64,000 nucleotides of DNA from Parcubacteria group bacterium. GTDB taxonomy: Bacteria > Patescibacteriota > Minisyncoccia > Phycocordibacterales > GCA-002724975. Positions 27,809-63,862 of the stretch are shown here, one piece after another (the first letter of the stretch is position 1; each line of letters begins with the position of its first letter). The notes below the pieces were generated by a model. The model had not been told where the DNA came from, ran no database searches, and was given only the letters and a program-made list of their open reading frames with translations. The stretch spans positions 1,152 through 65,151 of the forward strand of contig PBQF01000039.1 of assembly GCA_002724975.1 (NCBI GenBank), written 5' to 3'. Made by a program: the position numbers and the translations under genes.

Positions 27809-30007
27809 ATGGGCAGAAGAAGAAAAGAGAAAAAAGTTATAAACCCCTTTAAAAAAATGAGGAAAGAGACGGCTCAGGCGGTTTACACAGTAATTCTTTT
27901 TGTTCTAGGAGTTTTTTTAATATTAGCTTCAATAGGAAAAGCAGGGGTAGCTGGACGCACCACATACAATGCACTTTTTAGTATTCTGGGCGTGGGTTAT
28001 TTTGTCCTACCCATTCTTTCTTTCACTCTTGGCGCGTCTCTTTTAAAAAACGATGGTGAGGATGAGTATGAAAAAAGTAGCATGGGAGTAACAAAAGGTT
28101 TGGGATCTTTTTTGTTTCTCATTTCTTCTTTAGGAATTATTGATTTGTTGTTAAAAAAGGGTGGAGTAGTGGGTAATTTTATTTCTGGGGTTTTTGTAAA
28201 GTTCTTTGATTTTTACGGTGGTCTATCTATTATGATTGCTTTGTTTGCAATTTCCCTTTTGATAATTTTCGAAGCAAAGCTTTCAAAAGAATCGTTTCTT
28301 TTTTGGAGAAAATTTAAAAAAGACGATGAATACGACGAAGGAGATGAATATAATGAAGATGTCTATATGGAAGATGAAGAAAATTATGAAGAGGTGGAAA
28401 AAGAAAACCACAATGAAGAAAGAGAGCCAACGATAAATAATTTTTCAGACAGGATAGCAAAAGTGGGTAGCATGATGTTTGCTTCAAGGATTTCTCAGAA
28501 AGATTATAACCCTCCGCCCCTTAGCTTGCTACAAGGAGATAGAGGGAGGCCCGGAGTTGGTGATATAAAAGCAAACGCAAATATTATAAAAAGAACTTTA
28601 AAAAATTTTGGTATGGATGTCGAGATGGATGAAATATCAATAGGTCCGTCAGTTACAAGATACGCCCTGAAACCAGCAGAAGGAATAAAACTTTCCCGCA
28701 TTGTAGCTTTAAAGCAGGATCTGTCTTTGGCACTGGCAGCACATCCCTTAAGAATAGAGGCGCCAATTCCTGGCAGGTCTTTGGTTGGTGTGGAAATTCC
28801 AAATAGTTCAAGGACGACGGTTGGATTAGGTTCGCTTCTCTCTTCGAAAGAATACCAGGAATCAGTAAAGCCACTTATGATTTCCTTGGGTCGTGGAGTC
28901 TCGGGAAAATCAGAGTTTGCCAACTTGGCTAAAATACCTCATCTTCTAATTGCTGGAGCAACTGGTGCCGGAAAATCAGTCACAATACACACAATTATAA
29001 ATTCTTTGGTTTTCAGGAATTCTCCCGAAAATTTAAGGTTTATAATGATAGACCCTAAGAGAGTTGAATTGACTGCCTATAATGGTATACCTCATCTTCT
29101 ATCTCCCGTTTTAACCAACCCTAAGAAAGCTATTTTAGCCCTAAAATGGGCGGCTAAGGAGATGGAAAGAAGATACGACATTTTAGAAACCGAAAGAGTT
29201 AGAGATATAGGTTCCTACCATGATAATGTTCTGAACCCATACCTCGACAGAAAAATACAGAAAGAAGGTGAGGAAAACGAACCCGAAAGGATGCCTTATA
29301 TATTAATCGTCATAGATGAGCTGGCCGACATTATGAGTACTTATCCAAGAGAATTAGAGGCGGCTGTTGTCCGGTTGGCACAGATGTCCAGGGCTGTCGG
29401 AATACATCTAGTCCTATCAACCCAGAGGCCTTCGGTCCAAGTTATAACAGGATTAATTAAAGCAAACATTCCAGGGAGAATTGCTCTTCAAGTTTCGTCA
29501 CAAGTTGATTCCCGAACAATTCTTGATCAGAGTGGTGCAGAATCACTTCTGGGTGCTGGAGACATGCTTTATATTTCCGGTGAAATGTCAAAACCAAGAA
29601 GAATCCAGTCAGCTTTCATATCCGAAGAAGAAGTTAAGAAAGTTTCAAAATATTTAAAGAAAAATTATGAAGAGAAACTGCCAGAGGGCTTTGATATTAC
29701 AAGTGAGGAAAATAACGGCAGTATTGATTTTGATTCAGTGTCGGCATCTTCCGGGTTCAGTGATAAAGATGATGACAACTTGTACGAAGACGCAAGAGCG
29801 GCCGTAATGGATGCCGGAAAGGCTTCGACGTCATACATCCAAAGAAAACTTCGTGTTGGTTATGCAAGAGCTGCAAGGTTAATGGATATGCTGGAAGAAA
29901 GAGGTGTTATCGGACCACAAGATGGTTCCAAGCCAAGAGAAATTTTGGAGGCAAATGAAAATAGCGGGTATGGAGAAAGTGATTATGAGGAGAATGAAAA
30001 TATTTAA
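27809..30007 (+). CDS. ftsK: DNA translocase FtsK/SpoIIIE
   Basis: N-terminal TMs, GATGAGKSV Walker A, C-terminal gamma domain (YIQRKLRVGYARAARLMDMLEERGVIGP). Confidence 0.9.
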   Translation: MGRRRKEKKVINPFKKMRKETAQAVYTVILFVLGVFLILASIGKAGVAGRTTYNALFSILGVGYFVLPILSFTLGASLLKNDGEDEYEKSSMGVTKGLGSFLFLISSLGIIDLLLKKGGVVGNFISGVFVKFFDFYGGLSIMIALFAISLLIIFEAKLSKESFLFWRKFKKDDEYDEGDEYNEDVYMEDEENYEEVEKENHNEEREPTINNFSDRIAKVGSMMFASRISQKDYNPPPLSLLQGDRGRPGVGDIKANANIIKRTLKNFGMDVEMDEISIGPSVTRYALKPAEGIKLSRIVALKQDLSLALAAHPLRIEAPIPGRSLVGVEIPNSSRTTVGLGSLLSSKEYQESVKPLMISLGRGVSGKSEFANLAKIPHLLIAGATGAGKSVTIHTIINSLVFRNSPENLRFIMIDPKRVELTAYNGIPHLLSPVLTNPKKAILALKWAAKEMERRYDILETERVRDIGSYHDNVLNPYLDRKIQKEGEENEPERMPYILIVIDELADIMSTYPRELEAAVVRLAQMSRAVGIHLVLSTQRPSVQVITGLIKANIPGRIALQVSSQVDSRTILDQSGAESLLGAGDMLYISGEMSKPRRIQSAFISEEEVKKVSKYLKKNYEEKLPEGFDITSEENNGSIDFDSVSASSGFSDKDDDNLYEDARAAVMDAGKASTSYIQRKLRVGYARAARLMDMLEERGVIGPQDGSKPREILEANENSGYGESDYEENENI

Positions 30008-32427: not shown

Positions 32428-32988
32428 ATGTTGTCATATAATGAAATTACACCTAAGAAATTTGTAGAACTTAATGATGAGCCGTATGAAGTAATTTCTT
32501 CACATGTTTTCAGAAAACAACAGAGAAAGCCGGTCAATCAAACAAAGTTAAAGAATCTAAAGACTGGAAAAGTGACAGAACGCTCTTTTGCCGGTTCCGA
32601 AAAGGTAGAGGAAGCTAATATAGATTCTAGAGAAATAAAATACCTTTATAATAACAGGGGAGAATATTGGTTCTCCAATCCTGATAATCCAAAAGAAAGA
32701 TTTAGTCTAGACCAAGAAAAAATCCCAGAGAGATTTAAATTTATAAAGGAAAACGATATTATCACTTCCCTTTCATTTAATAATGAAATAATCGAATTTA
32801 AAATCCCAATTAAAGTCAGTTTGAAAGTTAAGGAAGCTCCACCAGCAGTAAAGGGAAATACCTCTTCTGGTGCTAACAAAATTGTTACTCTAGAAACTGC
32901 CGCCACAGTAACCACTCCTATCTTTATTAAAGAAGGGGATATTATCGAAGTTAATACTGAAACAGGAGAATATACGGGAAGAGTTTAA
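32428..32988 (+). CDS. efp: elongation factor P
   Basis: 186 aa with EF-P KOW-like N-domain and OB domains. Confidence 0.85.
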   Translation: MLSYNEITPKKFVELNDEPYEVISSHVFRKQQRKPVNQTKLKNLKTGKVTERSFAGSEKVEEANIDSREIKYLYNNRGEYWFSNPDNPKERFSLDQEKIPERFKFIKENDIITSLSFNNEIIEFKIPIKVSLKVKEAPPAVKGNTSSGANKIVTLETAATVTTPIFIKEGDIIEVNTETGEYTGRV

Positions 32989-52958: not shown

Positions 52959-54104
52959 TTAGTTTCCAATCATCCTCTCAACTCCTAAAAATTCATTTTT
53001 AGTGTCTTCTTTATGGTATGCTTTCCCGTATCTTCTCATGCCCATTAGGATTCCAAGGGCTAAAAATTCCGTCACGATATGTGAACCTCCGTAACTTAAA
53101 AATGGTACAGTTGTCCCAGTCACCGGCAAGAGTCCTATATTCATTCCAACATGAATAATAAAATGGCTTATCAAAAATATTGAAACTCCTAATCCAAAAA
53201 GTATCTCAAAATTTGTTGCCCCATGTAAAGCACTAAGTAATATTCTCCAAAACAAAACACCAAATAGAGAGAATAAAATAATAACCCCAATAAAACCCCA
53301 TTCTTCCGAAAAGGCAGCAAAAACAAAATCAGTCTCATATTCGGGTAAAAATTCCAAGCGCGATTGGGTGCCATAGCCAATCCCTTTTCCGGTAAGTTGT
53401 CCTGAACCAACGGCAATTGTCGATTGAAGAGCGTTATACCCCGCCCCCGAAGTGTCGGTTAAAGGATTAAGAAAAGTTAGAATCCTATCCTTCTGATATG
53501 GCACAAAAACAAAGCTCCATAATAAGACCATAGATAAAAGGCCAACAAGAAGAACTAGAAAGAGATGTTTTTTTGAAATTCCCGAAACTAAAACTAAACC
53601 AAGCCAAATCATAAAAATAATAATAGCTGAACCAAAGTCTGGCTGAAGCAAAACTAAAAGGAAAATTGTCAGGGCATAAAAACCAGAAACTAGAAGATGT
53701 CTGAAATTCGCAATCTCAACATGCCTCCTAGAAAAATATTTAGCTAAAATAATTATTAAAAAAATTTTTATTGGATCTGATGGTTGAAGTGAAAAAGCTC
53801 CAAAGTCAAACCAACTAATCGCTCCCTTTGTCACTTGGCCTGCAACGAAAAGAGTGATTAAAAGTCCGGTTGAAACAAGAAAAAGAAGAACGGAAACCCA
53901 GGTTCTTCGAAGAAACCTCCAATCAACTAAACTAGCCAGAAAAAAGACTCCAAAACCTATCAAAATCCAGATAATTTGCCTTTCGAAGAAAATACTCTCC
54001 CCAACAAAGGAATTCATGGTCACTAATCCGGCGCCTAACAAAGGAATAGTTGCTAGAAATAGATACCAATCTATGTTCAAACCGACTTTTTTAACTAAAT
54101 CCAT
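52959..54104 (-). CDS. SEDS family peptidoglycan polymerase (RodA/FtsW)
   Basis: 10-TM FtsW/RodA/SpoVE pattern. Confidence 0.85.
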   Translation of the reverse strand: MDLVKKVGLNIDWYLFLATIPLLGAGLVTMNSFVGESIFFERQIIWILIGFGVFFLASLVDWRFLRRTWVSVLLFLVSTGLLITLFVAGQVTKGAISWFDFGAFSLQPSDPIKIFLIIILAKYFSRRHVEIANFRHLLVSGFYALTIFLLVLLQPDFGSAIIIFMIWLGLVLVSGISKKHLFLVLLVGLLSMVLLWSFVFVPYQKDRILTFLNPLTDTSGAGYNALQSTIAVGSGQLTGKGIGYGTQSRLEFLPEYETDFVFAAFSEEWGFIGVIILFSLFGVLFWRILLSALHGATNFEILFGLGVSIFLISHFIIHVGMNIGLLPVTGTTVPFLSYGGSHIVTEFLALGILMGMRRYGKAYHKEDTKNEFLGVERMIGN

Positions 54105-54865
54105 TAGTTTCTAGTACCAAACTTTGGTAGAATTTCGACCCTTCCGATAGGGCTTTTGAAAGGATTGGGCCAAGTGAAAGTGACCTTCTCCATTGAGTCC
54201 GGACTTATGTTTTCGACAAGTGTTTTGGAACTAGCCATGGCGTTATCAGCCATGTCATAAATTATGGCAAACAGCTCTACGTCTTTTATTGAAACAAAGC
54301 CTCTGTTTTCAAGCTCTACATCAACCCTCGGAGAAGAATCAGTATTTATTATTCCTCTCTTATTTATTCGGAGATTTGAACTTATATTCTCCTGAGTCAG
54401 CCATTCAACTTTACTAGTGAATTCAAAGAATGTTTTATCTGGAGCCCTTTCTCTGGTCACAATTGTCCCTTCAAAAATAGGGAACCTCGTTTGAGCTGGG
54501 ATATCAGTTTTACCCTTTCTTTCATAAACTAGAACACCTTTGTCATCAAGAAGTGTGAAAGTGTAAAAGACATCTTGTGCCCCAGCACTCAGATTTGGGT
54601 TCTCTATCATGGCAACAGAATTATAGACTCCATCTCTTACTTCAAAACTTCTGGTCCAAAGAATTAATGGTTCAGCTACAGTAAATCCACAAATTTTTTC
54701 ACATCCACCACCGCAGTCGACTCCGCGTTCATTACTATTTTGTTTACCATCAAAACAAGTTGGCTCTTTATTAAAAATATTATAAACAGGAAGAGCAAAA
54801 ACAATGACGAGAATTAATATCAAACCCCCTAAATAGATAGATCTGTTTTTAGATGACCAACTCAT
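54104..54865 (-). CDS. hypothetical membrane-anchored secreted protein
   Basis: Start at the ATG at 54863-54865 (MSWSSKNRSIYLGGLILILV...). The track extension to 55192 runs through the 5S rRNA gene. Confidence 0.45.
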   Translation of the reverse strand: MSWSSKNRSIYLGGLILILVIVFALPVYNIFNKEPTCFDGKQNSNERGVDCGGGCEKICGFTVAEPLILWTRSFEVRDGVYNSVAMIENPNLSAGAQDVFYTFTLLDDKGVLVYERKGKTDIPAQTRFPIFEGTIVTRERAPDKTFFEFTSKVEWLTQENISSNLRINKRGIINTDSSPRVDVELENRGFVSIKDVELFAIIYDMADNAMASSKTLVENISPDSMEKVTFTWPNPFKSPIGRVEILPKFGTRN

Positions 54866-54932
54866 GAACTCTATAATACCAGAAAAACAAAATACTCCGC
54901 CATATTTAGCGAAGTATTTTGTTTTAAGTTCT

Positions 54933-55041
54933 CTAAGTTGGCGGTGACCTACTCTCGCCTTGCGACTACCATCGGTGCTAACAGGCTTAACTTCTGTGTT
55001 CGGAATGAGAACAGGTGTAGCCCTATCGCCAAACCACCAAC
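54933..55041 (-). rRNA. rrf: 5S ribosomal RNA
   Basis: Minus-strand GGTGGTTTGGCGATAGGGCTACACCTGTTCTCATTCCGAACACAGAAGTTAAGCCTGTTAGCACCGATGGTAGT...GTCACCGCCAAC. Confidence 0.9.
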
Positions 55042-55174
55042 TTAGAAAACTCAAATATTCAAAAGGTACGCCCTTACACTTTTTAGTGTGATATTGCCCA
55101 AAGACAACACACCCAAGTGTGTCACATCGGAAGATGTGGGGATAAATTGCAAACAAATTGTGGTTTTCAAAGCT

Positions 55175-58175
<3,001 letters not shown>

Positions 58176-58497
58176 AAGTTCAAAAACCACAATTTGTTTG
58201 CAATTTCCCAGCACTACTTTTTGATGGTGCTGGGTACCTGTTCAGTCCCACTTGAGATGAGACTGAAACTAATATATTGTCAAAGTTCAACCGCATTATG
58301 AATTTTAAAAAGAAAAAACCGCCTTCCAAGCGGTGCCAACCAAACAATGGAATACTCCAAAAAGTGATTAGCCTTTCCGCTTAAATATTGAATTTAACTT
58401 AATATTCATAAGCCCTAGTATTATATACACATTAGAGAGGAGGTCAACCCTGATAAAAGAAAAATCTCTGTCTCTTCTTTCAACTCTATAACAATCT

Positions 58498-58524
58498 GGT
58501 TCCAATTCTGTATAATTGGGGTCA
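58498..58524 (+). promoter_or_regulatory. 27-bp direct repeat copy 1 (ggttccaattctgtataattggggtca) containing TATAAT; putative promoter of methyltransferase gene
   Basis: Identical to the copy at 59453-59479; lies about 50 nt upstream of the ATG at 58573. Confidence 0.6.
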
Positions 58525-58572
58525 CAGCTTTTTGAGCTATATTTAACAACGTATTTTCAGTAGCCCAAAGGG

Positions 58573-59313
58573 ATGTTGGAACCATATGATATACTTCCCG
58601 TCATGCAAACTTTATATAGAAAACTCTCCCCATACTATAAATACTTTGTAAATTTTCATGCGGACACAAAAAAAGAGATTGAGGTTTTAAATAAGCTGTT
58701 TAAACAACACAAAGTAAAATCAATACTTGATATTGCTTGTGGTATAGGAAGACACAGTATAGCACTTGCAAAGTTAGGCTATGATGTGACAGGGGTGGAT
58801 TTTTCATCCTCTCAACTAGCACAGGCAAGGAAAGATGCAAAAGAAGCTGGTGTAAAGGTTACTTTCGTCAAAAAAGATGCAAATTATTTTACTTCACATA
58901 AAAAATTTGATGCAATAATTTGTATGTGGTCAACATTGGGGGAAGAACCTATGCAGTATGAAAAAGTAATACCAAATGTCTTTCGCTCTCTGAAAAAAAA
59001 CGGGGTATTTATAATAGACAATAGAGATTGGTCTGATATACCAAAAGGCGGGAAAAGAACTATACGCAACAGTTTATCTACTCCACACTACAAAATTAAA
59101 CAATTAATACTAGATAGATTTACCGAACATTTTCGCATCAGAGATATAACTTATACTATAAATGGAAAACAATATGATGACCTTTGTATTACACATATTA
59201 TTAGACCTAAAGAATGGGTAGCCGAATTGAGACAAGCTGGCTTTCGGAACAATAAAATAATAAAGAATTACAAAAGTAAGAAAACAAGTACTCTAATTGT
59301 GGGACAAAAGTAG
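58573..59313 (+). CDS. class I SAM-dependent methyltransferase
   Basis: Motif I DIACGIGRHSIALAKLGYDVTGVDFS, 246 aa. Confidence 0.8.
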   Translation: MLEPYDILPVMQTLYRKLSPYYKYFVNFHADTKKEIEVLNKLFKQHKVKSILDIACGIGRHSIALAKLGYDVTGVDFSSSQLAQARKDAKEAGVKVTFVKKDANYFTSHKKFDAIICMWSTLGEEPMQYEKVIPNVFRSLKKNGVFIIDNRDWSDIPKGGKRTIRNSLSTPHYKIKQLILDRFTEHFRIRDITYTINGKQYDDLCITHIIRPKEWVAELRQAGFRNNKIIKNYKSKKTSTLIVGQK

Positions 59314-59452
59314 TCACAGTGTTTCAACCACTGTTATCCCATGGGTTCTAATAAAGAGAGGTAGTCTGCTTATCAAGCAACTAAAGCTTTCTTTTCATCC
59401 TCAACCACAGTCCTCCCAAATTCCTGCCACTCTTTTAGCTCTATGACTAGTT

Positions 59453-59479
59453 GGTTCCAATTCTGTATAATTGGGGTCA
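59453..59479 (+). promoter_or_regulatory. 27-bp direct repeat copy 2 (identical), preceded by TGACTA at -35 spacing
   Basis: TGACTA-16-TATAAT arrangement; downstream lies about 150 nt with no convincing ORF before the GTAC-palindrome terminator. Confidence 0.55.
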
Positions 59480-59581
59480 GTTCATTAAATGGGCCCTCCT
59501 ACACCCTGTGCACATGGCACGAGCACTTACGCCGATGGACAAACAGAAATTCTTCTCTGGGATGGTTTCTTAATTTTTTAT

Positions 59582-59626
59582 GGTATGTACCATGGTACGT
59601 ACCACAGTACGTACTATTTTATTTTC
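59582..59626. terminator. cluster of overlapping GTAC-based palindromes (GTACCATGGTAC, GGTACGTACC, GTACGTAC) + T-run; convergent terminator between methyltransferase/putative sRNA and fusA
   Basis: Perfect palindromes at 59587-59598 and 59594-59603, followed by TATTTTATTTT. Confidence 0.5.
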
Positions 59627-61763
59627 GGGATTCTATTATTTTCTCTGCCACATTTGGAGGGACAACAGCATAACTATCAAACTCCATTGTTGATGTTCCT
59701 CTTCCTGCTGTCATTGAACGAAGTTCGGTGGTGTAACCAAACATTTCGCTTAAAGGAACTTTGGCTCGGATAACTTTCATGCCATGCCTGTCTTCCATTC
59801 CCTCAATTTGTCCTCTCTTAGAATTCAAACTTCCTGAAACATCACCAAAAAATTCTTCAGGTGCAACAACTTCAATACTCATTATCGGTTCTAAGATTAC
59901 AGGGTTGGCCTTTTTGGCTGCATCTTGAAAAGCTTTTGAACCGGCAATCTTGAAAGCAATCTCTGATGAATCAACATCGTGGTAAGAGCCGTCAAATAAA
60001 TTAACACTGACATCAACAATTTGATATCCAGCAACAACTCCCCTAGCCATTCCTTCTCTGATTCCTTTTTCAACTGCTGGAATATATTCCTGCGGAATAA
60101 TGCCACCTTTGATGCTATTTATAAATTCAAGACCATTTTTTCTTTTGGTATTCTTCGGCAAATCTTCATCAGCAATACTTTTGTCCATTGGTTTAACTCT
60201 AATTTTTACATGTCCATATTGTCCGCGACCACCTGTCTGCTTAATATATTTCTCCTCCTGCTCTGCCTCTCTCTGAATAGTTTCCTTATAAGCAACCTGT
60301 GGCTTGCCAACATTTGCCTCAACACTAAATTCCCTTTTCATTCTGTCTACCAAAATATCTAAATGAAGTTCTCCCATACCAGCAATAATAGTCTCCAATG
60401 TTTCGGGGTCAGTTTTTATTTTAAATGTCGGGTCCTCATCCGAAAGTTTTTTTAGGGCAAGACCCATTTTTTCCTGATCAGCTTTTGTTTTAGGTTCTAT
60501 TCTCATGGCTACAACTGGCTCTGGAAAGACAATTTGCTCAAGAATTATCGGCTTTGATTCATCACAGAGGGTGTGCGAGGTTTTAGTATCTTTAAGTCCA
60601 ACGGCTGCAGCAATTTCCCCAGCATAAACTGTCTCAACCTCTTCCCTCTTGTCTGCTTGCAAACGAACGATTCTCCCTAATCTCTCTTTTTCTTCTGTAT
60701 TTGAATTATAAATATATGAACCAGAAGAAACAGCCCCAGAATAAACCCTAAAGAATGTTAACTGGCCAACAAACGGGTCTGTCTGCAATTTGAATGCCAG
60801 AGCACAAAATGGCTCGTCATCGGAAGGCTTTCTTTCTTCCTCCTCATTTGTTTTAGGATTAATTCCCCTAACTGGTCGAATATCAACTGGAGACGGAAGA
60901 TAGTCAACAACACCATCAAGAACCAATTGCACTCCTTTGTTTTTCAGAGCACTGCCGGCATAAACTGGAAAAACTTCATTAGCTATAACCGCTTTTCTTA
61001 AAAGTTCTTTTAATTTGTCCAAAGGAAGTTCTTTGCCTTCTAAATAGTCATGCGTCATAACCTCATCATTCTCGACAATCCTTTCAATCAATTCTCCCCT
61101 ATATTTTTCTGCTTCAGCTTTCAGCTCCTCTGGGACTTCTCCTTCAACCACCTTCTCCCCCATTTGTCCTTCAAATCTGTAAGCTTTCATTTTCAAAAGG
61201 TCGACAGCTCCTTCGTGTTTTTCTTCAAGTCCAATTGGAATCTGCATTCGAACAGCTTTTTTACTTAGTCGCTCCAATATAGATGCGTACGATTTTTCAA
61301 AATCTGCTCCTGTTCTATCAAGTTTGTTTATAAGACAAAGTCTGGGCACTTGTGCCTCTTCGGCATATCGCCAGTTTGTCTCAGATTGTGGCTCAACTCC
61401 GGCAACACCGTCAAAAACAACAACGGCACCATCTAAAACTCTCATTGACCTTTTAACTTCAGCGGTAAAGTCAATGTGTCCAGGAGTATCAATAATATTA
61501 AAATTGGTTTTGTTTTCCTCTTTCTCTTTGTCTTCACCAATTTTTATCCAAGAGCATGAAATGGCGGCAGAAGTGATAGTTATACCTCTTTCTCTCTCCT
61601 GTTCCATCCAGTCAGTAATAGTATCTCCTTCATGAACTTCGCCGATTTTATGGCTCATCCCAGTATAAAAAAGGACTCTTTCAGATGTGGTAGTCTTACC
61701 CGCATCAATGTGGGCAATAATTCCAAAGTTTCTGGTTCTTTCTAGGGGATACTGTCTAGCCAT
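59619..61763 (-). CDS. fusA: elongation factor G
   Basis: [10 protein letters not shown]1 motif, 714 aa, str operon context. Confidence 0.95.
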
Positions 61764-63295: not shown

Positions 63296-63862
63296 TTACT
63301 TACAAACCATTTCTTTCCATTCCCACATTAACGGACAATCTTCAGTATTCCAAATATTTACATTAGCAAGTGATGAAGGTAGATTACACTGTTCGCCTTC
63401 ATTAATACCTGGATTATGAAAATCACTTGAGCATCCACCTGTTGAAATAGCCTGCCAGAAAAATTCTCCCTCAACATCAACAACATTTATTATTTTTTCC
63501 ACCACTTCCACCACTTCCACCACTTCCACCACTTCCACCACTTCCACCGTTTTCTCTTCAATTGCTTCTACTTCTTCTACTACATTTTCTTCTACGGTTG
63601 GTTCCTCGGCCGGCACTTCTTCATCTTCGACAACTTTTGTAACTTCTTCATCTGCAAACTCTATGTTTATTACCTCACCTATTGTAGAAACCGTGGCCAC
63701 TGCCACATTCGACATATCATTTAACGAAAAGGAGAGAACATAAACTAAGTCTTCCCCAGCCAAAGCTAAAGCGTTGAAAAACTTTTTTAAAAGTTTTACA
63801 GGATTTGTAGAAGCATCTACAAAAGTATCATTTTCTTCCACAGCTTGAATTTCTTCCGCCAC
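63296..63862 (-). CDS. hypothetical acidic protein with (VVE)n repeat
   Basis: 188 aa, Glu/Val-rich; contains a 9-bp x about 5.5 microsatellite. Confidence 0.4.
   Translation of the reverse strand: MAEEIQAVEENDTFVDASTNPVKLLKKFFNALALAGEDLVYVLSFSLNDMSNVAVATVSTIGEVINIEFADEEVTKVVEDEEVPAEEPTVEENVVEEVEAIEEKTVEVVEVVEVVEVVEVVEKIINVVDVEGEFFWQAISTGGCSSDFHNPGINEGEQCNLPSSLANVNIWNTEDCPLMWEWKEMVCK
63499..63548. repeat. 9-bp tandem microsatellite (accacttcc)n encoding (VVE)n
   Basis: ccaccacttccaccacttccaccacttccaccacttccaccacttccacc. Confidence 0.9.

What the first reader, a model, noticed from the sequence alone, without database searches (positions are those of the whole stretch)
58498..59630. Identical 27-bp promoter-like direct repeats bracket a SAM-methyltransferase gene; the second copy heads a ~150-nt ORF-less transcript candidate
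The sequence ggttccaattctgtataattggggtca occurs at 58498-58524 and again, perfectly, at 59453-59479. It contains an internal CCAATT...AATTGG inverted repeat and a TATAAT, and the second copy has TGACTA at -35 spacing.

Copy 1 lies about 50 nt upstream of the class I methyltransferase gene (58573-59313). Copy 2 lies 140 nt after the gene's stop. It is followed by about 100 nt of relatively GC-rich sequence (59480-59580) with no RBS-supported ORF, and then by the GTAC-palindrome terminator.

There are two readings:
- a duplicated promoter driving the methyltransferase and a small RNA;
- the 27-mers acting as att-like boundaries of a methyltransferase cassette, sitting between the rRNA operon and the str operon.
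Basis: seen in the sequence. Interest (0 to 1): 0.55.

Follow-up and report, generated by a model that had tools for sequence, protein, structure and literature searches.

The report
Strain-variable methyltransferase cassette bounded by repeats
The two identical 27-base repeats are the junctions of a 955-base, single-gene methyltransferase cassette that is present in about half of otherwise identical strains of this marine Parcubacteria species. It belongs to a small family of cassettes that pile up after the tRNA-Glu gene in related bacteria.

Summary
GGTTCCAATTCTGTATAATTGGGGTCA occurs exactly twice, at 58498-58524 and 59453-59479, and the repeat extends to 49 nt at 88% identity.

Contigs of the same species with an identical fusA protein fall into two alleles. 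One carries both 27-mers and the methyltransferase. The other carries a single 27-mer and is exactly 955 bp shorter. Its flanks differ from the first by 0-2 SNPs in 6.6 kb.

The 27-mer is the end of a conserved ~136-nt module (59344-59479). This module recurs in other Patescibacteria contigs. There, one-gene cassettes, each made of a shared leader, a variable gene and the module, form arrays. The arrays start right after TGGGGTCA at the 3' end of tRNA-Glu and end with the displaced tRNA trailer. One allele at that locus carries a large serine recombinase.

The promoter reading remains plausible: the -10 is perfect, and a different promoter sits in the same register where the module is absent.

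The "ORF-less transcript" after copy 2 has no Rfam match, no fold signal and no conservation. It is simply the chromosomal flank. A 35-codon ORF on the opposite strand starts in the 27-mer, but its coding status is unresolved. The recombination mechanism is inferred, not shown.

The parts
58476..58524 (+). Left junction repeat: 49 nt, with the perfect 27-mer at 58498-58524. It contains a promoter-like ATAACA (58488-58493), 17-nt spacer, TATAAT (58511-58516). This copy is the one kept in the empty allele.
58525..58602 (+). Conserved cassette leader: a 48-nt 5' untranslated stretch plus 10 leader codons (MLEPYDILPV) fused in frame to the cargo gene. It is 88-91% identical to the leaders of two unrelated cargo genes in L036/L051-L055.
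58603..59313 (+). Cargo: a class I SAM-dependent methyltransferase. The native start is M11 of the 58573-59313 ORF, because homologues begin MQTLYK. The substrate is unknown.
59316..59334 (.). Short hairpin (ACAGTG-N7-CACTGT) between the cargo stop and the module. The terminator scan flags it on the - strand.
59344..59479 (+). Conserved ~136-nt junction module. It starts with GGTTCTAATA (59344-59353) and ends with the second 27-mer. It is 78-86% identical to modules in L025, L028, L034, L036 and L051-L055.
59431..59479 (+). Right junction repeat: 49 nt, with the perfect 27-mer at 59453-59479. It contains a promoter-like ATGACT (59443-59448), 17-nt spacer, TATAAT (59466-59471). Its last 8 nt, TGGGGTCA, equal the 3' end of tRNA-Glu in L034/L052/L053.
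58525..59479 (+). The 955-bp segment that is present or absent between strains: leader, methyltransferase, module and one 27-mer. The crossover cannot be placed more precisely than somewhere inside the 27-mer.
   Evidence: (464 vs 1419 nt from fusA end to the 23S anchor)
59373..59480 (-). 35-codon ORF (LTPIIQNWNQLVIELKEWQEFGRTVVEDEKKALVA) whose first nine codons are the 27-mer. The first codon here is CTG, where the homologues have GTG. Coding status is unresolved.
58421..58525 (-). Truncated copy of that ORF. It has a GTG start and is homologous only over 17 codons. Its 3' part overlaps the 23S promoter.
59480..59618 (+). Chromosomal flank between the cassette and the fusA stop: the 'ORF-less transcript candidate'. 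It is present unchanged next to the single 27-mer in the empty allele and is not conserved in any related locus. A + strand hairpin at 59592-59617 is followed by a T-run.
58420..58447 (-). Context only: a strong promoter-like site (TTGACC-16-TATAAT) for the 23S-5S rRNA genes, back to back with the left junction.

Best explanation
The two 27-mers are the direct-repeat junctions of a 955-bp single-gene cassette. The cassette consists of a shared leader, a methyltransferase and a conserved ~136-nt module. It sits in the fusA-23S spacer of this Parcubacteria species and is gained or lost by recombination inside the 27-mer.

Shown:
- Both alleles exist in near-identical genomes, and the breakpoints lie in the 27-mer.
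- The same module, 27-mer and leader separate other one-gene cassettes in a second species.
- There the array begins immediately after TGGGGTCA of tRNA-Glu and ends with the displaced tRNA trailer.
- In that species too, a cassette is present or absent with breakpoints in the 27-mer.

Inferred:
- The first insertions were made by a site-specific recombinase acting in trans. The candidate is the large serine recombinase carried by a sister element at the same tRNA-Glu site.
- That recombinase would cut in or at the edge of TGGGGTCA(C).
- The 27-mer also supplies the -10 element that drives whatever lies to its right. That is the methyltransferase at copy 1 and only the non-conserved flank at copy 2.
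For: Two alleles in the same species. Five contigs with an identical fusA protein have one 27-mer and 464 nt from fusA to the 23S anchor. Four have two 27-mers and 1419 nt. One scaffold has an N-gap between two 27-mers. The flanks differ by 0-2 SNPs in 6.6 kb, and both alleles occur on both backgrounds of the single shared SNP. The index lists the methyltransferase in 54 collection blocks and fusA in 112.

Absence in relatives. Relatives have fusA, ~750 nt, then 23S, with no methyltransferase or 27-mer. Methyltransferase homologues elsewhere are non-syntenic and lack the module and leader.

The cassette family. The pattern search found the 27-mer with ~110 nt of upstream homology in other contigs, including a MAG labelled Saccharibacteria. 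Homology ends exactly after GGGGTCA(C) in four different contexts.

The tRNA-Glu locus in the second species. In L052/L053 the tRNA-Glu 3' end is fused directly to the leader. In L053 this is followed by two cassettes and then CCAATCTTAGG.... L028 differs from L036 by one 750-bp cassette, and flanks are identical among five contigs. L034 has the same flanks but a 5.3-kb insert encoding a Resolvase+Recombinase+Zn-ribbon protein, with the module at its far end and a 12-nt repeat TGGGGTCACCAA.

Displaced terminators. L025 and L032 have a terminator hairpin 4-13 nt after the 27-mer, as expected for a displaced tRNA terminator.

Promoter. The hexamers score 10 of 12. In L036 the first leader is preceded by TTGACT-17-TAAATT in the same register without the module.
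Against: - No recombinase gene was found among 30 ORFs of the window that were scanned for this, and none lies in the cassette.
- No tRNA lies near the site in the window, so the site here is a secondary one whose origin is unexplained.
- The empty allele already contains 49 nt of module-like sequence.
- A 27-bp perfect repeat could support RecA-dependent or slippage deletion without any dedicated enzyme, and the data cannot tell loss from gain.
- The sequences to the right of the junction (leader, tRNA trailer, flank X) share no motif, which is unusual for serine-recombinase sites.
- No excised circle has been seen.
- Promoter activity is untested.
- The family rests on a handful of contigs from two or three lineages.
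Confidence: 0.72

Rival explanations
1. There is no dedicated mobility system. The methyltransferase segment is simply lost, or swapped between strains, by homologous recombination or replication slippage between two short direct repeats. The shared junctions in other genomes reflect local duplication and gene conversion.
For: The repeats are perfect over 27 bp and direct. RecA, RecO and RmuC are encoded in the window. No recombinase is nearby. Both observed polymorphisms, in the window species and in L028 versus L036, are compatible with simple deletion between repeats.
Against: Homologous recombination cannot create the novel joints seen here. The module ends at exactly the same base next to unrelated flanks in four contexts. 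The leader is joined to the discriminator base of tRNA-Glu. The module is 78-86% identical across organisms that share nothing else alignable. A recombinase-bearing element with the same module occupies the same tRNA-Glu site.
Confidence: 0.2
2. The 27-mer is a duplicated sigma-70 promoter. Copy 1 drives the methyltransferase, and copy 2 drives a functional ~140-nt small RNA (59480-59625) that ends at the GTAC-palindrome terminator.
For: Both copies score 10 of 12 as promoters, and a + strand hairpin with a T-run follows at 59592-59617. G+C is locally raised. The promoter, flank and terminator unit is intact in both alleles.
Against: There is no Rfam match at E up to 10. Folding is no better than shuffles on either strand. 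The flank has no similarity to the fusA-23S spacers of relatives or to any locus carrying the module, where the sequence after the 27-mer is a tRNA trailer or terminator instead. Duplication of a promoter does not explain the 955-bp presence/absence allele.
Confidence: 0.1
3. The 27-mer is conserved mainly because it encodes the N-terminus (TPIIQNWN) of a real 35-residue protein on the minus strand. The repeat is a partial duplication of that small gene.
For: The ORF has the same length and stop position in five distinct sequences, with no indels. Its frame has the highest synonymous fraction of the six frames, and pN/pS is 0.2-0.6. One homologue was called as a gene in a public data set (P0170). 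The genome lacks Shine-Dalgarno sequences in general, so their absence is not an argument against it.
Against: The full-length copy in the window starts with CTG, and the GTG-started copy is truncated after 17 codons. The empty allele has no intact copy. In L025 and L032 a terminator lies 4-13 nt upstream of the start. L032 shortens the ORF yet keeps the GGTTCTAATA motif at nearly the same distance, pointing to constraint on the DNA. There is no Pfam or PHROG family, and no protein in 5.8 billion shares three 5-residue words with it.
Confidence: 0.15
4. The two alleles are an assembly artefact of a repeat.
For: One scaffold (L047) has an N-gap between two 27-mers.
Against: The repeat (27-49 bp) is much shorter than the assembler k-mer shown in some record names (k141). 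Both alleles were recovered repeatedly from records of several sources (ENA, NCBI, JGI) whose contig names differ in format.
Confidence: 0.02

Closest known systems
tRNA-targeting integrative genomic islands, including tycheposon islands of marine Prochlorococcus (Islander resource PMC4383910; bioRxiv 10.1101/2020.12.28.424599)
   Same: In the related loci, insertion is at the 3' end of a tRNA gene. An intact tRNA lies at one end and a repeat of its terminus at the other. Successive insertions stack up, separated by that repeat. Some units lack a recombinase. Presence or absence varies within a population. Both tyrosine and large serine recombinases are used in tycheposons.
   Different: The units here are single genes of 0.75-1 kb with no integrase, replication or excision genes. 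They are separated by a conserved ~250-bp junction (module, 27-mer and leader) rather than a bare partial tRNA. The repeat shares only TGGGGTCA(C) and a T-loop-like GGTTC.A.TTC with the tRNA. In the window the site is not a tRNA gene but the fusA-23S spacer.
Staphylococcal cassette chromosome composite islands and recombinase-less pseudo-SCC units (e.g. PMC7029136, PMC10581047)
   Same: A large serine recombinase is involved, and the L034 protein's best NCBIfam matches are CcrB/CcrA, below cut-off. Insertion is at the 3' end of a conserved gene. Short direct repeats lie at every junction. Arrays are tandem and include units with no recombinase that are thought to be moved in trans.
   Different: The target is tRNA-Glu rather than rlmH. 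The units are about tenfold smaller. No recombinase has been linked to the window's species. The relationship of the L034 recombinase to Ccr is only family-level.
Integron gene cassettes
   Same: Both are arrays of single-ORF cassettes in one orientation, each ending in a conserved recombination-associated element. The enzyme is not carried by the cassette. Cassette content varies between strains.
   Different: There is no IntI, attI or Pc nearby. The junction does not fold end-to-end like attC and lacks the GTTRRRY/RYYYAAC cores. The junction itself carries a promoter-like site, a leader and a start codon, whereas integron cassettes are usually promoterless.
Xer/dif-dependent elements (IMEX; pdif modules of Acinetobacter, PMC12907356)
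   Same: Read as a 28-bp site, the repeat has an 11-6-11 layout with partly symmetric arms (8 of 11) and a central TGTATA identical to E. coli dif. It bounds a module that has no recombinase of its own. FtsK with a gamma domain is encoded in the window.
   Different: Only 15 of 28 positions match E. coli dif, and the conserved XerD arm is absent. pdif modules are flanked by inverted sites, whereas these are direct. The homology break lies at the outer edge of the right arm, not at the central region.

Membership tests
tRNA-gene-targeting integrative island | Insert lies between an intact tRNA gene and a direct repeat of the tRNA 3' end | tested here: not met
   In the window there is no tRNA within 45 kb of the site. 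The feature is met in related loci: L034 has a 12-nt repeat TGGGGTCACCAA, L052/L053 have tRNA-Glu fused to the leader, and L025 has GGGTCACAA.
tRNA-gene-targeting integrative island | Integrase gene inside the element | tested here: not met
   The 955-bp unit holds only the methyltransferase. No Resolvase or Phage_integrase domain was found in 30 window ORFs. The sister element in L034 does encode a large serine recombinase.
tRNA-gene-targeting integrative island | Precise empty-site allele in related genomes | tested here: met
   Five conspecific contigs lack exactly 955 bp and keep one 27-mer.
Integron cassette / attC | attC: imperfect inverted repeats whose ends pair (R''-L''/L'-R'), with a GTTRRRY core | tested here: not met
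   The 213-nt junction folded as single-stranded DNA gives z -1.5 on both strands with no end-to-end pairing. No GTTRRRY lies at the boundary, by reading.
Integron cassette / attC | IntI integrase with attI and Pc next to the array | tested here: not met
   None was found in the window ORFs scanned. The rest of the genome is not available.
Integron cassette / attC | Tandem single-ORF cassettes in one orientation | tested here: met
   There is one cassette in the window. Two lie in tandem in L036, L051 and L053.
Xer/dif site (IMEX, pdif module) | 28-bp site: two 11-bp partly symmetric arms around a 6-bp centre | tested here: met
   TGGTTCCAATT-CTGTAT-AATTGGGGTCA has arms 8 of 11 symmetric.
Xer/dif site (IMEX, pdif module) | Match to the dif consensus, especially the XerD arm TTATGTTAAAT | tested here: not met
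   15 of 28 positions match E. coli dif and 12 of 28 match B. subtilis dif. The right arm does not match.
Xer/dif site (IMEX, pdif module) | XerC/XerD-dependent recombination | not testable with these tools
   No xer gene was found in the window, and the genome is not in the GTDB collection searched.
Large-serine-recombinase cassette islands (SCC-like) | Ccr-type large serine recombinase acting on the junction repeats | tested here: inconclusive
   The L034 protein has Resolvase, Recombinase and Zn_ribbon_recom domains. Its best NCBIfam hits, CcrB/CcrA/XisF, are far below cut-off. Its action on the 27-mer is not testable here.
Sigma-70 promoter | -35 and -10 hexamers at 16-18 nt spacing | tested here: met
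   ATAACA-17-TATAAT and ATGACT-17-TATAAT score 10 of 12 each, but such sites are as frequent in shuffles (7 found vs 6.1 expected).
Sigma-70 promoter | Transcription start mapped downstream | not testable with these tools
   No transcript data are available. The only indirect support is that L036's first leader keeps TTGACT-17-TAAATT in the same register.
Small regulatory RNA gene (59480-59625) | Known family, conserved sequence or structure | tested here: not met
   No Rfam hit, z -0.6 and -0.35, and no homology in relatives or module-bearing loci.
Small protein gene (35 codons, minus strand) | Intact ORF with a start codon and purifying selection | tested here: inconclusive
   Length and stop are conserved in 5 sequences and pN/pS is 0.2-0.6. 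However, the window's full-length copy starts with CTG, and the ORF is shortened in L032.

The most novel reading that the evidence does not exclude
Patescibacteria carry an integron-like cassette platform that uses no integron machinery. Single-ORF cassettes of 0.75-1 kb would be inserted by a recombinase supplied in trans, directly after the TGGGGTCA that ends tRNA-Glu or a previous cassette. Each cassette would bring a ~250-bp junction that recreates the target. The junction would also supply a promoter, a leader and an in-frame start codon (MLEPDIL...) to the next captured gene. Any ORF would then become expressed on capture, and arrays could grow or shrink within a clonal population.
Probability: 0.3. 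Interest if true: 0.8.

Novelty: new variant of a known kind. Interest (0 to 1): 0.55.

Why it matters
Mobile elements and the sources of strain-level gene-content variation in the Candidate Phyla Radiation are poorly known. These bacteria have tiny genomes and few recognisable mobile elements.

This locus gives a clean natural example: the same chromosome with and without a one-gene cassette, with exact junctions. It also links that example to arrays at tRNA-Glu in other members of the phylum.

If the junction is a true recombination site that also acts as an expression signal, it would be a compact gene-capture system. That would be useful for understanding how episymbiotic bacteria exchange accessory enzymes such as methyltransferases, whose nearest relatives here are annotated in DPANN archaea. 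It could also serve as a simple marker for finding variable genes in these genomes.

For annotation, the result warns that the 'promoter plus orphan transcript' pattern next to such junctions need not be a small-RNA gene.

Tried and rejected
- Rfam at gathering and at E up to 10 found nothing in 58175-59700 except the rRNAs.
- Folding of 59476-59630 on both strands, and of the leader as RNA, was no better than shuffles.
- Ten contigs carrying the methyltransferase were 100% identical over the region, so they gave no covariation.
- Contexts of methyltransferase homologues (P0002, P0003, P0005) are not syntenic and have no module.
- The pattern scan of GTDB genomes showed the species is absent. 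It gave three chance hits plus one real hit (L025).
- The scan of IMG/VR gave one chance hit inside a phage structural gene.
- A relative of the L034 recombinase was not found in IMG/VR.
- The HMMER search gave one true homologue (P0170), one low-complexity repeat protein (P0169, spurious) and one weak match to helicase-associated-domain-like repeats (P0171, not pursued).
- Pfam and PHROGs found nothing for the small ORF.
- The attC-like fold was rejected.
- Canonical dif was rejected.
- An IS200/IS605-type single-strand mechanism was considered, because insertion is always 3' of GGGTCA and there are hairpins near both ends. It was set aside because the two hairpins are unrelated in sequence.
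Full report
**Observation.** The sequence GGTTCCAATTCTGTATAATTGGGGTCA is present at 58498-58524 and 59453-59479 on the + strand. No further match occurs in the window at up to three mismatches, and none in 100 shuffles. The repeat is really 49 nt long (58476-58524 and 59431-59479, 88% identity).
- 5S and 23S rRNA lie on the - strand (54936-55041 and 55175-58174).
- A 246-codon class I SAM methyltransferase ORF lies at 58573-59313 on the + strand.
- fusA, rpsG and rpsL lie on the - strand from 59619.
- The consensus scan finds ATAACA-17-TATAAT in copy 1 and ATGACT-17-TATAAT in copy 2.
- The same scan finds a + strand hairpin with a T-run at 59592-59617 and a strong - strand promoter-like site for the 23S gene at 58447-58420.

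**Organism.** The EF-G protein is 84% identical to that of a Candidatus Campbellbacteria genome and 75-77% identical to many Parcubacteria. The window therefore comes from a Patescibacteria (CPR) bacterium. The species is widespread in metagenome assemblies from several public sources. It is not among the GTDB representatives searched.

**The small-RNA idea.**
- The stretch after copy 2 (59480-59618) has no Rfam match even at E = 10.
- It folds no better than shuffled sequence on either strand (z -0.6 and -0.35).
- It has no similarity to the fusA-23S spacers of relatives.
- In every related locus that carries the repeat, homology stops exactly at the last base of the 27-mer.

Nothing supports a conserved RNA gene there. 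Transcription from copy 2 into this flank remains possible.

**The decisive result.** Looking up the exact EF-G protein returned contigs of the same species in two forms.
- Four contigs (L042-L045) have two 27-mers and 1419 nt between the fusA stop and an anchor at the 23S 5' end.
- Five contigs (L040, L041, L046, L048, L049) have a single 27-mer and 464 nt. This is exactly 955 bp less, which is the spacing of the repeats.
- The single 27-mer carries the left flank of copy 1 and the right flank of copy 2.
- One scaffold (L047) has an N-gap between two 27-mers.

Over 6.6 kb of flanks the contigs differ by 0-2 SNPs. The one SNP shared by several contigs is found with both alleles. The protein index lists the methyltransferase in 54 blocks and EF-G in 112, which fits roughly half occupancy.

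Relatives with 84-89% identical EF-G have fusA followed by about 750 nt and then 23S. They have no methyltransferase and no 27-mer. Homologues of the methyltransferase (at most 64% identity, several annotated in DPANN archaea) sit in unrelated contexts without the repeat. The methyltransferase segment is therefore an accessory cassette bounded by the 27-mers.

**A family of such junctions.** A degenerate pattern for the core of the 27-mer found it in other contigs. Alignment shows a conserved module of about 136 nt. It begins with GGTTCTAATA (59344 in the window) and ends with the 27-mer. Where another + strand gene follows, a conserved leader of about 78 nt comes next.

The leader includes ten codons (MLEP(Y)DIL...) that are in frame with three unrelated cargo genes:
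- the window's methyltransferase;
- a 234-residue methyltransferase-like protein;
- a 187-residue protein with no family match.

Homologues of the window's methyltransferase start at its eleventh codon, so those ten codons belong to the junction.

**The tRNA-Glu locus in a second species.** The contigs are L028, L034, L036 and L051-L055.
- In L052/L053 the array begins immediately after ...CCCCGTGGGGTCA, the 3' end of tRNA-Glu(UUC).
- The array ends with 27-mer|CCAATCTTAGG..., that is, the displaced CCA and trailer of the tRNA.
- Flanks are identical among these contigs (109 of 109 on the right, 137 of 137 on the left).
- The content differs: one cassette (L028), two cassettes (L036, L051, L053), or a 5.3-kb element (L034).
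- The L034 element encodes a large serine recombinase (Resolvase, Recombinase and zinc-ribbon domains) and carries the same module at its far end.
- L028 equals L036 minus one 750-bp cassette, with breakpoints again in the 27-mer.

In L025, from a MAG labelled Saccharibacteria, a tRNA-Glu(CUC) lies 1.8 kb before the module. In both L025 and L032 a terminator hairpin follows the 27-mer within 4-13 nt, as expected for a displaced tRNA terminator.

The last 8-9 nt of the 27-mer (TGGGGTCA, plus C) are identical to the tRNA-Glu terminus. The left part resembles its T-loop.

**Interpretation.** The 27-mers are junction repeats of a one-gene cassette. The cassette belongs to a family of insertions that target the end of tRNA-Glu, or a previous junction. 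The sharp, repeated boundary next to unrelated flanks argues that the original insertions were site-specific. Later loss could also occur by homologous recombination or slippage between the repeats.

The enzyme is not identified for the window's species. None of 30 ORFs scanned in the window is a site-specific recombinase. The L034-type serine recombinase is the best candidate by association.

In the window the site is not a tRNA gene. The empty allele already holds 49 nt of module-like sequence next to the 23S promoter, and the origin of that sequence is unexplained.

**Promoter reading.** The -10 is a perfect TATAAT and the -35 matches 4 of 6 in both copies. In L036 the first leader is preceded not by the module but by TTGACT-17-TAAATT in the same register. 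This suggests that a promoter at that position matters. Where the array starts at the tRNA, the first cassette would instead be co-transcribed with tRNA-Glu.

In both alleles of the window the right-hand 27-mer points into the non-conserved flank, which ends at the terminator before fusA. This is best seen as an outward-facing junction promoter that is insulated, not as a gene.

**The minus-strand ORF.** The 27-mer encodes TPIIQNWN at the start of a 35-codon ORF.

Evidence for coding:
- Five distinct homologues keep the same length and stop.
- Its frame has the highest synonymous fraction of the six frames, and pN/pS is 0.2-0.6.
- One homologue is annotated in a public data set.

Evidence against coding:
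- The window's full-length copy begins with CTG, and the GTG-started copy is truncated.
- The empty allele has no intact copy.
- Terminators abut the start in two loci.
- L032 shortens the ORF while keeping GGTTCTAATA at nearly the same distance: 107 nt, against 109 nt in five loci and 120 nt in L025.

I leave its coding status open. The genome lacks Shine-Dalgarno sequences altogether, so their absence is not informative.

**Comparison with known systems.** The closest are tRNA-targeted genomic islands and tycheposon islands, where successive insertions are separated by partial tRNAs and degraded units persist (PMC4383910; 10.1101/2020.12.28.424599). Also close are staphylococcal SCC composite islands, with recombinase-less units moved by serine recombinases (PMC7029136).

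Integron cassettes are similar in layout, but the junction fails the attC tests. The 11-6-11 layout recalls Xer sites and pdif modules (PMC12907356), but the sequence is not dif-like.

The new features are:
- the very small, single-gene units;
- the conserved 250-bp junction carrying expression signals;
- the host phylum;
- a secondary site between the str operon and the 23S gene.

**Verdict.** This is a real feature and a new variant of a known kind. The promoter reading is plausible. The small-RNA reading is unsupported.

Noticed in passing
window 58318-58447 (- strand): Between the 23S promoter-like site (58447-58420) and the 23S 5' end (58174) lies a 53-nt stretch (58377-58429) that is 77-83% identical to the same spacer in Campbellbacteria-like relatives. 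It is followed by a terminator-like hairpin with a T-run (58334-58318). This could be an rRNA leader or antitermination element, or a short leader transcript.
   Followed up: partly
window 54936-58174; L017, L019, L021: The 23S-5S genes follow fusA on the same strand with no 16S gene between them, and this order is conserved in relatives. The relatives' 23S genes are expanded (4.1-4.7 kb) by group I introns with LAGLIDADG ORFs. The window's 23S is uninterrupted at 3.0 kb.
   Followed up: partly
window 54104-55192 (- strand): A 362-codon ORF with no Pfam match, called as a gene in public annotations, overlaps the whole 5S gene and the 3' end of 23S. Its true start is probably further downstream.
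   Followed up: no
whole window (e.g. starts at 32428, 50270, 15048, 46134): No gene start examined has a Shine-Dalgarno sequence. Several have a TATAAT-like hexamer ending about 7 nt before the ATG, which suggests widespread leaderless mRNAs.
   Followed up: partly
window 58573-59313: The nearest homologues of the cassette methyltransferase (48-56% identity) include proteins annotated from DPANN archaea (Nanoarchaeum, Aenigmatarchaeota, Woesearchaeota). This hints at gene sharing between bacterial and archaeal episymbionts.
   Followed up: no
window 58498, 58583 (-), 59344, 59453: The 9-mer GGTTCYAAY occurs six times in the window, four of them in the cassette: both 27-mers, the left end of the module, and, inverted, the end of the leader at the start codon. 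The cargo gene is thus bracketed by inverted copies. These could be protein-binding sites or T-loop-like relics.
   Followed up: partly
L036 1-140; L055: In some alleles of the second species the first cassette is preceded not by tRNA-Glu but by ...AGTTCGGAAAGCCATAAATTAGGGTCA. This 27-nt stretch has the same register and ending as the 27-mer but a different left half. It is possibly the end of another element type in the same hotspot.
   Followed up: no
L034 100-5300: The 5.3-kb insert at tRNA-Glu encodes a large serine recombinase, a DUF5681 protein, a 738-residue DUF5667 surface-type protein with Thr/Pro/Ser-rich repeats, and small ORFs, all on one strand. No relatives were found in IMG/VR.
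   Followed up: partly
window 27809-30007: FtsK with a gamma domain is encoded here, implying a Xer/dif chromosome-resolution system in this genome. No xer gene or dif site was identified in the window.
   Followed up: no
window 63296-63862 (- strand): This ORF encodes a highly acidic protein with a (VE/VV) repeat run (VEVVEVVEVVEVVE) and has no family match.
   Followed up: no
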